Made by a program: the position numbers
Origin: Escherichia coli O157:H7
GTDB lineage: Bacteria > Pseudomonadota > Gammaproteobacteria > Enterobacterales > Enterobacteriaceae
Assembly: GCF_013167455.1 (NCBI RefSeq)
Contig: NZ_CP038328.1
Direction: 5' to 3' (one strand)
DNA: 64,000 nt
Part shown: positions 10,001-13,000 of the stretch, in pieces
Layout of the letters: the number at the start of each line of letters is the position of its first letter
Numbering within the stretch: the first letter of the stretch is position 1

Positions 10001-13000
10001 GAGATCCTGAAAAACGAGCTGGCAGAGAAAGAGAAAAATCTGGCCTTGTTGCTGGACTCTGTAGCGAACGATAAAGCTGCCCTGATTGCGAAATCTCGCG
10101 ATACCTTTATTCGTCTGCTGAACGCCACCCCGAACGGTGTGATCCGCAACTCCGACGTGGCAAAAGGTGTGGTCGAAACCTCCCTGAACGTCGGTGTGGT
10201 GACCATGACTGACAATAACGTAGAAATTCACTGTCTGATCCGTTCTCTGATCGACAGCGGTAAAGACTACGTGGTGAGCATGCTGGATTCGCTGGGTAAA
10301 CTGGCTGGCGCGAAAACCGAAGCGAAAGGCGCATATCCTGGCTGGCAGCCGGACGCTAATTCTCCGGTGATGCATCTGGTACGTGAAACCTATCAGCGCC
10401 TGTTCAACAAGACGCCGAACATCCAGATTATCCACGCGGGCCTGGAATGTGGTCTGTTCAAAAAACCGTATCCGGAAATGGACATGGTTTCTATCGGGCC
10501 AACAATCACCGGTCCACACTCTCCGGATGAGCAAGTTCACATCGAAAGCGTAGGTCATTACTGGACACTGCTGACTGAACTGCTGAAAGAAATTCCGGCG
10601 AAGTAATTATTTGATTTGCTGCCGGATGGCGTTTAATCGCCTTCCGGCAGTTTCATCCTTCATTATCCTTCGATAAAAGCCATCCCTGTGAACGTTCGTC
10701 GCGGGTTGCCACGTTCAATCTGGTGATGGAACATTCGCCGCTGCGATTTCAGCACTGCGCTATTTTCCTGTTGCTGCTGCTCCAGCTTCCAGGCAATCAG
10801 CAATCGCGCCAGCCGTTTGTTAGCATGCTGGCTGCGTTCTGACTGAACCTTCACGCTAATCCCGGTTGCCAGATGCGTGGCGCGTACCGCCGAGTCGGTT
10901 TTATTGACATGTTGACCGCCCGGCCCCGACGGACGCAGCGTCTCATAACGGATTGCATCCGATTGTTCCTGCTCATCAGCGGTAAAACGCCCAATGCCCA
11001 GAAACCAGTTTTTGCGCCCATGATGAGGCCGATACGGACTCAGACAAATCCACTGAATAGTGCCGCACCAACTTTCGCTTAACGCCCATGCGTTGTCGCC
11101 ATCCAGAGAAATCAGCGCCGAACGCAGCGTGTCAGAGTAGCGGCCCGTTTCTGTTTCCAGCACCGTTACCGCGACGTCTTGTCGGGTAAAAACGACCAAC
11201 TGAGAAGAACGCTGCGCCAATCGGGTAGCCGCGTCCGGGGTGTAAATCTGGCATCCCCACTACGCGCTGCATGTTGGGTAAATTTGCCGTGGTGTGTAAT
11301 TGTTGGATCGCTAAACTCTCGATCCACAGGTCATCAGATGCGATGGTAAATACCGCATCGGATAAGGGACGAATATATTTGCCCATGTACCATTCCATTT
11401 ATACTCGTCATACTTCAAGTTGCATGTACTGCGACTGCGTTCGTTCACCCCAGTCACTTACTTATGTAAGCTCCTGGGGATTCACTCGCTTGTCGCCTTC
11501 CTGCAACTCGAATTATTTAGAGTATATAAATATAAAAATCAGGAAATGGCAGACGAATCCAGGGCAAGAAAAAAAAGAATTAATCCTGGAAAGGTCTGCA
11601 AAGAGTCATTGATAAAGGATTTGTCATGATTTACCTCCTTGCAGTTTGTGGAATAAGAAAACGCGCACATACCAGGCGGGCGTTATTTTCATTGCAAGCT
11701 GGATTTAATGTTGCGGTTTATATCGCATAGAAAAATTAGTAAACCACGCTCCCCGGCATTCAACGCGCTGCTGCTTAACTGTCTGAAAACCATAACGTTC
11801 AAAAAAGGGTTTTGCGGTTATGCTGGCGTCCACCGTAAGTTCGGATTCAGACTTAATCCAAGGTTTTAACAAAGCGCTGGCAACCCCACGGCGGGTGTAT
11901 TCAGGGTCAACAAATAACATATCGATATAATGTTCAATGCGGGAAATAAAACCAACCGGTTGTGCATTAATGACTGCAACCCGCACTTGTGATTTCGCGA
12001 GTTTCTCCTTCCAGCGAGATTCGTCAATCTGCGCCCAGGCGGCAATTTGTTGTGGTGAATAATGCTGACTGGCGGTCATCATAACCGCTCTAATGAAAAT
12101 AGCGCATAGTTGCTGAAAATCGCCAGGCTGATAGTTTCTTATTTGTATGTTATTCATAATATAAATTCAAAAACGCATGCGAAACGCTTCTGCCATTTTC
12201 CCAATTTTATGCATTTGGTTGTTATCTCGAGCCAGTTTATGAGGTTCAGGTTTCAGAATGGCAATGAGCAACCATGCTTGCTCATCAAACGCACCCTGAC
12301 AATATACCAAATGCGATTCGTCATTCGTTCTGCTGAATTGGCGCAACTGTGGCGGAAATGGATTATTCACATTTGCCAGATGAATATGAGCAACTCGCTC
12401 AAATTTGATTAATGGCCAAGTAAACGAGTCGTCGTAGAGTGCATCGCGACCAAATATATCTGGCAAAACACCGTCACGCTTATAGGAAATAAAATCCGCC
12501 GTTAACGCATCAAGCTCCTCTGCTGTAAGTTGCAGGCGAATAAGTTTTGTTTTGAATACCCGCATCCTTATTCCTTAAAGTCATTGAAATCATCATCCGT
12601 CATATCATTAAGATATTTTTCAGCTCGGCGTGTAATTTCCTCTAATCTTGCAGCACTTGGACGGAAGCGCGCCTTTATGGGCTTTTTCTCCTCTTGTTCA
12701 GCAAGCATGTCCATTAACGCTTCGAATGCGCTGGCACTTAAGAGATATCCTGCGGGGCGATTATTAGAAAGAACCGCAACCGGTTGATCAATAAAGTATT
12801 TAGCTGGGTTTTTACGTAATTCAGTGATATTGACCGATTTTTCAGCGAGAATTCGATGCATACAGTGATCCCCTCATAATAATGCACACCAGAATATACA
12901 TAATAGTATACATCATAATCCCAGCACCAGTTGTCTTTCCATTTGAGGGTCAAGCAACGTCACATGCAGCCCCACCAGTCGCACACCGCGCCCGCCGCGG

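What the first reader, a model, noticed from the sequence alone, without database searches (positions are those of the whole stretch)
11415..11511. Nested inverted repeats between yafP and the ykfJ remnant (possible structured RNA)
A roughly 10-bp outer stem (TCAAGTTGCA...TGCAACTCGA, one mismatch) encloses a 6-bp stem (CCCCAG...CTGGGG) and an inner 5-bp hairpin (CTTAC-TTAT-GTAAG) within about 100 nt of non-coding DNA. It could be a structured leader or small RNA associated with the former rtcB operon.
Basis: seen in the sequence. Interest (0 to 1): 0.3.

Follow-up and report, generated by a model that had tools for sequence, protein, structure and literature searches.

The report
Known ERIC repeat in rtcB leader
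The nested inverted repeats are one complete 127-bp copy of ERIC, a long-known palindromic repeat scattered through enterobacterial genomes, so the finding is ordinary; it sits inside the control region of a now-defunct ribosome-repair operon, and that control region is the more interesting feature.

Summary
The stems belong to a 127-bp imperfect palindrome, 11400-11526. It contains the ERIC1R typing primer exactly and ERIC2 with one mismatch. It is 89% identical to a 127-nt consensus of 71 copies from other genomes. E. coli genomes carry a median of 11 copies. It is therefore a copy of ERIC/IRU, a known miniature mobile repeat, not an RNA specific to rtcB. At this site 1652 of 5426 E. coli genomes have the full copy and 1439 have an empty site. 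Most others appear to have a 55-bp form with an internal deletion. Pairing co-varies strongly across the family.

The context is more interesting. The copy lies in the leader of rtcB2-prfH (ykfJ-prfH remnants here), 13 nt before the rtcB start. That leader has a conserved promoter, a 15-codon ORF (11627-11580) and three mutually exclusive helices. The ORF is the unannotated counterpart of the Pseudomonas aeruginosa leader peptide PA5471.1. ERIC sits in the loop of the helix that hides the rtcB ribosome-binding site, and it is predicted to leave the switch nearly unchanged. Verdict: already known, low interest.

The parts
11400..11526 (-). Complete ERIC/IRU element, 127 bp. The family-consensus orientation is on the - strand, which is the sense strand of yafP and rtcB-prfH.
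   Evidence: Inverted repeats; folds; primer matches; 89% identity to the 127-nt consensus of 71 family members; only copy in the window.
11502..11526 (-). 5' terminal inverted-repeat arm in the element's orientation (TATACTCTAAATAATTCGAGTTGCA).
   Evidence: pair I1. Family termini are TATACCC...GGGTATA in 38-40 of 72 copies and co-vary (helices 1-2).
11400..11424 (-). 3' terminal inverted-repeat arm (TGCAACTTGAAGTATGACGAGTATA). It ends 13 nt before the rtcB ATG.
11442..11485 (.). Conserved central core. It holds the ERIC2 site (11442-11463, - strand, 1 mismatch), the ERIC1R site (11464-11485, + strand, exact) and the apical hairpins CCCCAG/CTGGGG and CTTAC/GTAAG.
   Evidence: primer sequences confirmed in PMC6742460; pairing 96-98% in the family (helices 5-6).
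11429..11436 (+). Direct repeat CTGCGACT, the left end-point of the 72-bp internal deletion (11434-11505) that gives the 55-bp short allele in other strains.
   Evidence: Alignment A1; coordinates read.
11501..11508 (+). Direct repeat CTGCAACT, the right end-point of the same deletion.
   Evidence: Alignment A1; coordinates read.
11669..11697 (-). Context: sigma-70-type promoter of the rtcB2-prfH leader. The -35 TTGCAA is at 11697-11692, followed by a 17-nt spacer. The -10 at 11674-11669 reads TGGTAT here, against TAGTAT or TAATAT in alleles with an intact operon.
   Evidence: Position and spacing conserved in most of 12 taxa (plus reading of the printed sequences for Klebsiella, Salmonella and Intestinirhabdus). 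The promoter scan missed it because it requires A at position 2 of the -10.
11580..11644 (-). Context: leader ORF MTNPLSMTLCRPFQD (ATG 11627-11625, stop 11582-11580). Its SD region CTGCAAGGAGG (from 11644) is segment 0. Segment 1 is CTTTGCAGAC at 11603-11594, and CCAGG lies at 11589-11585.
   Evidence: Conserved 13-15-codon ORF in 13 taxa including P. aeruginosa. Not annotated in K-12.
11542..11563 (-). Context: CCTGG (11563-11559) and segment 2, GTCTGCCATTTCC (11554-11542). Segment 2 pairs either with segment 1 or with the rtcB SD/AUG region.
11381..11396 (-). Context: segment 3, GGAATGGTACATGGGC, which is the rtcB ribosome-binding region (GGAATGG, 11396-11390) plus the start codon (11386-11384). 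The ERIC copy lies in the loop between segments 2 and 3.

Best explanation
The feature is one full-length copy of ERIC (enterobacterial repetitive intergenic consensus, also called IRU), a 127-bp imperfect palindrome classed as a non-autonomous miniature inverted-repeat transposable element. It inserted at an A/T-rich site in the leader of the rtcB2-prfH ribosome-repair operon, 13 nt upstream of the rtcB start codon. That site is the loop of the helix that pairs the ribosome-binding site with an upstream anti-SD segment. Because the element pairs with itself, it closes that loop without disturbing the flanking helix, which is probably why the insertion is tolerated. It behaves as a passenger. 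It is inferred to be transcribed with the leader as a long hairpin, in the orientation that allows G.U pairs. In this window the operon is a remnant: rtcB and prfH are truncated and the leader promoter -10 is altered. Any cis effect on expression is therefore moot here. Shown: identity, copy number, presence/absence polymorphism, family-wide covariation, and position relative to the leader elements. Inferred: transcription, neutrality, and the mode of insertion.
For: Identity. The element holds ERIC1R exactly and ERIC2 with 1 mismatch, against 0 expected by chance, and the primer sequences are confirmed in PMC6742460. It is 127 bp with 25-nt terminal inverted arms. It is 89% identical to the consensus of 71 independently collected copies. 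Reviews describe ERIC as a 127-bp MITE with terminal inverted repeats, target-site duplication and TA termini (PMC2229807; PMC3184786).

Dispersed repeat. It is found in 5425 of 5426 E. coli genomes, at a median of 11 places per genome. Of 72 full-length copies from many genera, 67 are 126-128 bp, and the usual termini are TATACCC...GGGTATA.

Insertion polymorphism at this site. There are full, 55-bp short and empty alleles. 1652 genomes carry the full allele and 1439 carry the empty allele. The empty-site sequence resembles the Salmonella orthologue.

Structure maintained. 86.5% of cells are paired against 31-40% when partners are slid. 21 of 43 pairs change on both sides. 152 cells change on both sides against 48.7 +/- 5.7 in shuffles, with 0 of 500 shuffles reaching the observed values.

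Passenger status. Constrained folding gives E(helix C) - E(helix B) of -0.6 kcal/mol for the empty allele, +1.7 for the short and +0.9 for the full. The flanks still pair around the element in the minimum-energy fold.
Against: No transcript data were available, so co-transcription is inferred only from the promoter position.

The target-site duplication cannot be read cleanly here. The filled allele is 127 bp longer than the empty one, whereas a 123-bp core plus one TA would add 125 bp. The left flank also differs at 3 positions or by a 2-bp indel.

A short ERIC sits at the same site and in the same orientation in Klebsiella spallanzanii. That could mean an insertion hot spot, an ancient insertion, or selection for an insert there.

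G.U pairs outnumber A.C 107 to 15 in the helices that the search pattern does not constrain. This hints at an RNA-level constraint and so at some function when transcribed. That count is of sequences, not independent events.
Confidence: 0.85

Rival explanations
1. The ERIC copy has been co-opted as a cis-regulator of rtcB2-prfH. As part of the leader mRNA it would change mRNA stability, for example through an RNase E site exposed or hidden by the hairpin as proposed for Yersinia ERICs. Alternatively it would stabilise the RBS-sequestering state. Either way the full, short and empty alleles would set different expression levels.
For: The element lies between the leader's anti-SD segment and the rtcB ribosome-binding site, in the sense orientation. 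Reviews report orientation-dependent effects of ERIC on flanking mRNA stability in Yersinia (De Gregorio 2005, cited in PMC2229807 and PMC3184786). A short ERIC occupies the same site in Klebsiella. G.U pairs outnumber A.C in this orientation.
Against: 27% of E. coli genomes lack the element at this site, and the listed examples have an intact rtcB. Citrobacter, Cronobacter, Kosakonia, Limnobaculum, Proteus and others also have none there. The predicted shift in the helix balance is at most about 2.3 kcal/mol. A crude ORF-based survey found no orientation preference relative to co-directional flanking genes, 13 same against 13 opposite. Nothing was measured.
Confidence: 0.1
2. It is a dedicated structured leader or small RNA of the rtcB operon. 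An example would be a Y-RNA-like or riboswitch-like element that evolved with the operon.
For: The fold is very stable. The position is just upstream of rtcB. A published structural-entropy scan listed a 100-nt window of this intergenic region among its top 100 E. coli riboswitch-like candidates (PMC4448311).
Against: The same sequence occurs at about 11 unrelated loci per genome and in many genera next to unrelated genes. It is absent from this site in strains and genera with an intact operon. No Rfam family reaches its gathering score. The best match is V_AS5 at 48.9 bits against a threshold of 96, and no Y RNA or riboswitch model appears at E <= 10. The operon's conserved leader elements are elsewhere.
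Confidence: 0.02
3. It is the intrinsic transcription terminator of the upstream dinB-yafNOP operon.
For: It is a large hairpin located downstream of yafP on the same strand.
Against: No run of U follows the stem, and the terminator scan finds nothing in 11250-11800. The element begins 179 nt after the yafP stop and lies beyond a conserved promoter and leader ORF. It is absent in many strains.
Confidence: 0.01

Closest known systems
ERIC / IRU (enterobacterial repetitive intergenic consensus; Sharples & Lloyd 1990, Hulton et al. 1991; basis of ERIC-PCR typing)
   Same: The length is 127 bp. It is an imperfect palindrome with terminal inverted repeats and TA-containing termini. The central core matches both ERIC-PCR primers. 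It is extragenic and multi-copy in E. coli, and short variants with internal deletions exist (reviews).
   Different: Nothing that defines the family differs. This copy is 89% identical to the cross-genus consensus. It sits inside an mRNA leader rather than at the 3' end of a gene.
ERIC copies of Yersinia that modulate mRNA stability (De Gregorio et al. 2005, as summarised in PMC2229807 and PMC3184786)
   Same: It belongs to the same repeat family, is probably co-transcribed with flanking genes, and forms a long hairpin in RNA.
   Different: The Yersinia effect was described for genes upstream of the repeat and depends on orientation and on RNase E. None of this was tested here, and here the relevant gene lies downstream. 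I could not read the original paper.
Rfam RF02818 V_AS5 (Vibrio RNA AS5) and RF02766 Ysr49 (Yersinia sRNA 49)
   Same: V_AS5 aligns end to end (model positions 1-129) with 11404-11527 on the - strand at E = 3.3e-9, sharing the core GUGACUGGGGUG and the outer stem. These Rfam entries look like transcripts of ERIC-like repeats.
   Different: The scores are below the gathering thresholds: 48.9 against 96 and 17.7 against 95. The element is therefore not a member by Rfam's criteria.
REP/BIME and other small bacterial repeats (Correia/NEMIS, RUP, RU-3)
   Same: They are short extragenic palindromic repeats that can be transcribed into hairpins.
   Different: REP units are about 35 bp, G+C-rich and clustered. 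The sequence here matches ERIC, not REP. Correia and RUP occur in other phyla and have different sequences (Table 1).
PA5471.1 leader peptide of the P. aeruginosa armZ(PA5471)-prfH(PA5470) operon (Morita et al. 2009). This concerns the neighbouring leader, not the repeat.
   Same: A 13-15-codon ORF with SD GCAAAGGAGG and core (S/T)xLCR lies upstream of an RtcB-family gene and prfH. The P. aeruginosa ORF retrieved here, MIQFSTLCRLRLA, fits the published description: 13 aa, Q3 and F4, about 250 bp upstream. The downstream GUCUGCC and GGAUUGG..AUGGGCAA motifs are shared.
   Different: In Enterobacterales the ORF starts only 116-128 nt before rtcB when no insertion is present, and the last helix covers the SD and AUG. 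This suggests translational control rather than the transcription termination proposed for P. aeruginosa. The enterobacterial RtcB2 is a ribosome-repair ligase, not a MexZ anti-repressor.

Membership tests
ERIC / IRU repeat | Unit length of about 127 bp | tested here: met
   The element spans 11400-11526, 127 bp. Of 72 full-length family members, 47 are 127 bp, 15 are 128 bp and 5 are 126 bp.
ERIC / IRU repeat | Conserved central inverted-repeat core, the target of primers ERIC1R and ERIC2 | tested here: met
   ERIC1R matches with 0 mismatches at 11464-11485. ERIC2 matches with 1 mismatch at 11442-11463. Zero matches are expected by chance. The primers are as printed in PMC6742460.
ERIC / IRU repeat | Imperfect palindrome with terminal inverted repeats | tested here: met
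   The 25-nt arms are 80% complementary and the inner 14-nt arms 79%. Fold z-scores are -7.8 and -9.5.
ERIC / IRU repeat | Multiple dispersed copies in enterobacterial genomes, in extragenic positions | tested here: met
   The median is 11 places per E. coli genome, with matches in 5425 of 5426 genomes. Copies occur in Yersinia, Serratia, Citrobacter, Enterobacter, Kluyvera, Photorhabdus, Cedecea and E. albertii. By a crude ORF call, 67 of 72 copies lie between ORFs.
ERIC / IRU repeat | 5'-TA-3' at both termini, with TA target-site duplication | tested here: inconclusive
   The termini read TA|TAC...GTA|TA here and in most family members. Comparing filled and empty alleles at this locus gives a 127-bp difference and a left flank that differs at 3 positions or by a 2-bp indel. 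The duplicated dinucleotide therefore cannot be assigned unambiguously.
ERIC / IRU repeat | Sequence similarity over the full length to other members | tested here: met
   Identity to the 127-nt consensus of 71 copies is 89%. Identity to an E. albertii copy at another locus is about 98%, with an alignment score of 121 out of 127.
MITE (non-autonomous transposable element) | Presence/absence polymorphism at orthologous sites | tested here: met
   Full, short and empty alleles exist at the same site. 1652 genomes carry the full allele and 1439 the empty one.
MITE (non-autonomous transposable element) | Mobilisation in trans by a cognate transposase | not testable with these tools
   No partner transposase is known to me for ERIC, and none was sought here.
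Rfam RF02818 V_AS5 | Score at or above the family's gathering threshold | tested here: not met
   The score is 48.9 bits against a gathering score of 96.
Intrinsic terminator | G+C-rich stem followed directly by a U run | tested here: not met
   The scan of 11250-11800 finds none. The sequence after the stem on the sense strand is AAAUGGAAUGG.
PA5471.1-type leader-peptide attenuator (neighbouring feature, 11697-11381) | Short ORF with a strong SD upstream of an RtcB-family gene and prfH, similar in sequence to PA5471.1 | tested here: met
   E. coli has MTNPLSMTLCRPFQD and P. aeruginosa has MIQFSTLCRLRLA. Both share the SD and the LCR core and are followed by the same GUCUGCC and GGAUUGG motifs. 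Thirteen taxa carry such an ORF.
PA5471.1-type leader-peptide attenuator (neighbouring feature, 11697-11381) | Mutually exclusive RNA helices linking the ORF to the downstream gene | tested here: met
   Helices A and C are 92.5% paired against 33-46% when slid. Helix B is 92.4% paired against 20-46%, with 5 of 11 pairs changed on both sides and 0 of 500 shuffles reaching that. Only 12 sequences were used and the structure was derived from them, so the support is moderate.
PA5471.1-type leader-peptide attenuator (neighbouring feature, 11697-11381) | Induction of the downstream genes by ribosome stalling | not testable with these tools
   Literature only. E. coli ykfJ is reported to be inducible by 4-azaleucine (Morita 2006, as cited in PMC3516279).

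The most novel reading that the evidence does not exclude
The ERIC copy may be more than a passenger. It lies in the apical loop of the RBS-sequestering helix of a PA5471.1-type leader-peptide switch. I did not find this switch described for Enterobacterales. It could turn on the ribosome-repair operon rtcB2-prfH when ribosomes stall at or near the start of the leader ORF, as colicin-E3-damaged ribosomes do. The full, short and empty ERIC alleles, and the ERIC at the same site in Klebsiella, would then be natural variants that tune the threshold or basal level of this damage sensor.
Probability: 0.1. Interest if true: 0.5.

Novelty: already known. Interest (0 to 1): 0.15.

Why it matters
For the finding itself, little. 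ERIC has been known since 1990-91 and is used routinely for strain typing, and this is one more copy. Two points have some value.

First, the locus is a clean natural series: full, internally deleted and empty alleles occur at one site in thousands of genomes. That series shows a self-pairing repeat landing in a hairpin loop of an mRNA leader with almost no predicted effect on the leader's alternative folds.

Second, the surrounding leader links two bodies of work. One is the P. aeruginosa armZ leader peptide, which senses ribosome stalling. The other is the enterobacterial RtcB2-PrfH system, which repairs ribosomes cut by colicin E3. The RtcB2-PrfH papers held in the library do not mention a leader, upstream ORF or attenuation. 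The ORF is not annotated in E. coli K-12.

Tried and rejected
1. Rfam search of 10600-12300 at E <= 10. It gave only sub-threshold matches (V_AS5, Ysr49, STnc350) and no Y RNA or riboswitch.
2. Promoter and terminator scan of 11250-11800. It found nothing. It missed the leader promoter because the -10 here is TGGTAT.
3. My first reading of 11664-11692 as the yafP terminator. The fold is not significant (z = -0.5), and the stretch contains the conserved -10 and spacer of the leader promoter.
4. The idea that the repeat inserted into a strongly structured native hairpin. The fold of the empty allele alone is marginal (z = -1.7). Support for helix C comes from cross-taxon pairing instead.
5. An orientation bias of family members relative to flanking genes, as a test of RNA-level function. 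There was none: 13 same against 13 opposite, by a crude ORF caller.
6. Counting the short allele from its deletion junction. This failed as a locus-specific count, because the same junction occurs at other loci (4193 genomes, median 2 places).
7. Reading the primary papers: Hulton 1991, Sharples & Lloyd 1990, Wilson & Sharp 2006, De Gregorio 2005, and Morita 2006 and 2009. None is held, so I relied on reviews.
8. Constrained folding of allele L002. The run is invalid because my motif search failed on a sequence variant, and I ignore it.
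Full report
**Observation.** The window is the E. coli pepD / prfH' / rtcB' (ykfJ) / yafP-yafO-yafN-dinB region. All of these genes except pepD are on the minus strand. They are the inner parts of a larger imperfect palindrome. The outer arms are 25 nt (11400-11424 and 11502-11526, 80% complementary) and the inner arms 14 nt (11448-11461 and 11466-11479). As RNA, 11395-11530 folds to -48.0 kcal/mol on the plus strand (z = -7.8) and -58.4 kcal/mol on the minus strand (z = -9.5). No shuffle out of 200 folds as well on either strand.

**Identity.** The centre of the element reminded me of the ERIC-PCR primers, so I tested that. ERIC1R (ATGTAAGCTCCTGGGGATTCAC) matches exactly at 11464-11485. ERIC2 (AAGTAAGTGACTGGGGTGAGCG) matches with one mismatch at 11442-11463 on the other strand. 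No match is expected by chance and there is no other match in the window. The primer sequences are as printed in PMC6742460, and 217 papers in the library pair the ERIC1R sequence with the ERIC name.

A blastn search of the 136-nt stretch against 5426 complete E. coli genomes hits 5425 of them, at a median of 11 places per genome. By a local alignment score above 30, 94 of these are ERIC-like, and 72 are full length. Those 72 include 47 copies of 127 bp, 15 of 128 bp and 5 of 126 bp, usually with termini TATACCC...GGGTATA. The window copy is 89% identical to their 127-nt consensus.

Reviews describe ERIC/IRU as a 127-bp enterobacterial MITE with terminal inverted repeats, target-site duplication and TA at the termini (PMC2229807; PMC3184786). 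Rfam has no family that reaches threshold here. The best hit, V_AS5 (48.9 bits, gathering score 96, E = 3.3e-9), aligns end to end and looks like a Vibrio transcript of an ERIC-like repeat.

**The locus is polymorphic.** The same site in other E. coli has three states.
- The full 127-bp element occurs in this window, K-12 and L002.
- A 55-bp short form keeps both termini and lacks 11434-11505. The deletion lies between the direct repeats CTGCGACT (11429-11436) and CTGCAACT (11501-11508). It occurs in L004, L005 and L006.
- An empty site occurs in L003.

A 181-nt query that only the full allele can cover at 80% or more finds it in 1652 genomes. A 48-nt query spanning the empty junction finds 1439 genomes, one place each, and the listed hits lie beside an RtcB gene. 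The short junction could not be counted in a locus-specific way, because the same deleted form occurs at other loci. By subtraction it accounts for at most about 2300 genomes. That agrees with 16 of 39 chromosomes in an even-step sample.

The empty allele reads ...CCUGAUUUUUAUUCAUAAAUGG..., close to the Salmonella orthologue (...UCUGAUUUUUUAAUUCAUACAUGG...). The empty state therefore looks ancestral. The filled allele is 127 bp longer. Both junctions lie in A/T-rich sequence at TA. The left flank differs at three positions or by a 2-bp indel, so the duplicated dinucleotide cannot be assigned with certainty here.

**Is the pairing maintained?** I aligned 71 copies (A2) and applied the structure of the window copy. 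86.5% of cells pair, against 31-40% when the 3' partners are slid. 21 of 43 pairs change on both sides. 152 cells carry such changes against 48.7 +/- 5.7 in shuffles, and no shuffle out of 500 reaches the observed values. RNAalifold independently finds compensatory changes at 13 of its 24 pairs. The terminal, outer and apical helices are 92-98% paired. The middle helix (columns 31-40 with 90-98) is poorly supported at 55%.

In the two outer helices, which the search pattern does not constrain, G.U pairs outnumber A.C 107 to 15 in the orientation of the window's minus strand. That is the sense strand of yafP and rtcB, and it is the strand with the stronger fold. This fits an RNA-level constraint. 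However, the count is of sequences, not independent events, and a few sites dominate it. A crude ORF-based survey found no orientation preference relative to co-directional neighbours, 13 same against 13 opposite. A purely DNA-level explanation, matching termini for a transposase, cannot be excluded for the terminal helix.

**What the repeat landed in.** Reading the sense strand turned up a strong Shine-Dalgarno (AAGGAGGU) seven nucleotides before an ATG at 11627-11625. It opens a 15-codon ORF, MTNPLSMTLCRPFQD, that stops at 11582-11580. Nothing is annotated there in the curated K-12 record.

I fetched the DNA upstream of RtcB2 homologues (60-82% identical) from twelve other taxa. Every one has a 13-15-codon ORF at the equivalent place, with the same SD and the core (S/T)xLC(R/G). 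Examples:
- Salmonella: MTLYSLNALCRHFQH
- Klebsiella: MKINSQNALCRPFQE
- Kosakonia: MTQHALISLCRPFQD
- Limnobaculum: MQQIQLNILCRRIQD
- Proteus: MTTTNMNTLCGQSQK
- Pseudomonas sp. YH-1: MQALITLCRSRLA

The P. aeruginosa locus gives MIQFSTLCRLRLA: 13 residues, Q3 and F4, 255 nt upstream of armZ. That matches the published description of the leader peptide PA5471.1 (PMC3516279; PMC13041342). PA5471/ArmZ is an RtcB-like homologue of E. coli ykfJ and is co-transcribed with PA5470/prfH. Its expression responds to ribosome stalling on PA5471.1. E. coli ykfJ was itself reported to be inducible by 4-azaleucine. The small ORF beside the finding is therefore the enterobacterial counterpart of PA5471.1.

**Leader anatomy.** A sigma-70-type promoter (TTGCxx, 17 nt, TA(G/A/T)xAT) is conserved 22-36 nt upstream of the ORF's SD. 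In the window it is TTGCAA (11697-11692) and TGGTAT (11674-11669). All four E. coli alleles with the truncated operon have TGGTAT. The three with an intact operon have TAGTAT or TAATAT. The sample is small.

Three helices are supported across 12 taxa (alignment A3).
- Helix A pairs the ORF's SD region (CUGCAAAGG) with CUUUGCAG in the L-C codons.
- Helix B pairs GCAGAC with GUCUGC, and CCAGG with CCUGG.
- Helix C pairs GUCUGCCAUUUCC with GGAAUGGUAxAUGGGC, the rtcB ribosome-binding site and start codon.

Helices A and C are 92.5% paired, against 33-46% when slid, with two pairs changed on both sides. Helix B is 92.4% paired, against 20-46%, with 5 of 11 pairs changed on both sides and 0 of 500 shuffles reaching that. 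A and B share one segment, and B and C share another. This is the layout of a classical attenuator.

My inference is as follows. A ribosome held at or near the start of the leader ORF blocks helix A. That lets helix B form and frees the rtcB ribosome-binding site. This fits the report that colicin-E3-cleaved ribosomes stall at the start codon (PMC13166195). It also fits the activating effect of an early stop codon in PA5471.1. None of this is tested. The structure was derived from the same 12 sequences, so the support is moderate.

The RtcB2-PrfH papers in the library do not contain the words leader, uORF, upstream, attenuation or PA5471 (PMC9223846, searched with partly different terms, has no 'upstream' or 'intergenic'). 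The three papers that combine prfH with 'leader peptide' are two Pseudomonas reviews and one general review of protein-synthesis stress responses. I could not read Morita 2009 to see whether it notes the enterobacterial homologues.

**How the repeat relates to the leader.** ERIC (11526-11400) lies in the loop of helix C, between GCCAUUUCC (11550-11542) and GGAAUGG (11396-11390). Because it pairs with itself, the flanks still meet. In the minimum-energy fold of 11560-11370 the flanking segments pair around the ERIC stem. Constrained folding gives E(C) - E(B) of -0.6 kcal/mol for the empty allele, +1.7 for the short and +0.9 for the full. The rtcB SD-AUG region is paired in the minimum-energy fold of all three.

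The repeat is thus predicted to be nearly neutral for the switch, which would explain why it is tolerated there. Klebsiella spallanzanii has a 64-bp short ERIC at the same site and in the same orientation. Salmonella has a diverged copy (69% identity) in the opposite orientation upstream of the promoter. Intestinirhabdus has an unrelated 173-nt insertion in the loop of helix B. The loops of this leader evidently accept insertions.

**Verdict.** The finding is a correctly observed but already known element, a full-length ERIC/IRU repeat. In this window the operon is a remnant and its promoter -10 is altered, so any cis effect is moot. The leader-peptide switch next to it is a new member of a known kind and is the part worth following up. 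A regulatory role for the ERIC alleles is not excluded, but I rate it unlikely, at about 0.1.

Noticed in passing
window 11580-11644 (- strand), with 11542-11563 and 11381-11396: There is an unannotated 15-codon leader ORF, MTNPLSMTLCRPFQD, with a strong SD upstream of rtcB (ykfJ). It is conserved in 13 taxa and is the counterpart of the P. aeruginosa leader peptide PA5471.1 (MIQFSTLCRLRLA). Three mutually exclusive helices link it to the rtcB ribosome-binding site.
   Followed up: yes
window 11669-11697 (- strand): This is the conserved sigma-70-type promoter of the leader (TTGCAA, 17 nt, -10). The -10 is TGGTAT in all four E. coli alleles with the truncated rtcB-prfH, including this window and K-12. 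It is TAGTAT or TAATAT in the three alleles with an intact operon. The change removes the key A at position 2. The sample is small.
   Followed up: partly
window 11434-11505; loci L004, L005, L006: A 55-bp short ERIC allele arises from a 72-bp deletion between the direct repeats CTGCGACT and CTGCAACT. The same deletion junction also matches other loci, in 4193 genomes at a median of 2 places. It is therefore a recurrent short subtype of the family.
   Followed up: partly
L130 (Klebsiella spallanzanii), about 1427-1490: A 64-bp short ERIC-like element lies at the same position as in E. coli, between the anti-SD segment and the rtcB ribosome-binding site, in the same orientation. This may reflect an insertion hot spot, an ancient insertion, or selection.
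   Followed up: partly
L129 (Salmonella enterica), about 1176-1302: A diverged ERIC copy (69% identity) lies in the opposite orientation between dinB and the leader promoter. It is a second, independent ERIC in the same intergenic region in another genus.
   Followed up: partly
L131 (Intestinirhabdus alba), about 1293-1465: A 173-nt insertion unrelated to ERIC sits in the loop of leader helix B, between the leader ORF stop and TTGCCCTGG.
   Followed up: no
L039-L046, L056 (Rheinheimera); L066-L073 (Endozoicomonas MAG): Full-length ERIC-like repeats of 128-131 bp occur in genera outside Enterobacterales. They have the same termini and core, and compensatory changes in the outer and apical stems.
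   Followed up: partly
L028, L036, L037 (Serratia oryzae); L125: In these chimeric copies the right half of ERIC is joined to a different repeated sequence (CAAATCGGTCTTTGACCGATTTGAACAGCGCTTGCGCTGGCCC... in the three Serratia oryzae loci). The join is at the same internal point near the core.
   Followed up: no
window 11621-11693 (+ strand): There is a sub-threshold Rfam match to the Salmonella sRNA STnc350 (21.2 bits, gathering score 60, E = 0.55). It lies antisense to the leader promoter and the start of the leader ORF, and includes the hairpin AACGCGC...GCGGGCGTT followed by ATTTTC.
   Followed up: no
hits H12 and H15 (other E. coli loci): ERIC matches at these loci are split into two pieces spanning about 200 bp. 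This is consistent with long ERIC forms that carry an internal insertion of about 70 bp.
   Followed up: no
L002, L005 (E. coli strains 2017-02-2CC and 2011C-3911): In these strains yafP follows dinB directly, overlapping it by 4 nt, and yafN-yafO are absent. The toxin-antitoxin pair is therefore a variable insert in this operon.
   Followed up: no
K-12 coordinates 253317-253416, overlapping the element: A published structural-entropy scan for riboswitch-like sequences ranked a 100-nt window of this same intergenic region 98th among E. coli intergenic hits (PMC4448311). The signal probably comes from the ERIC hairpin or the leader.
   Followed up: partly
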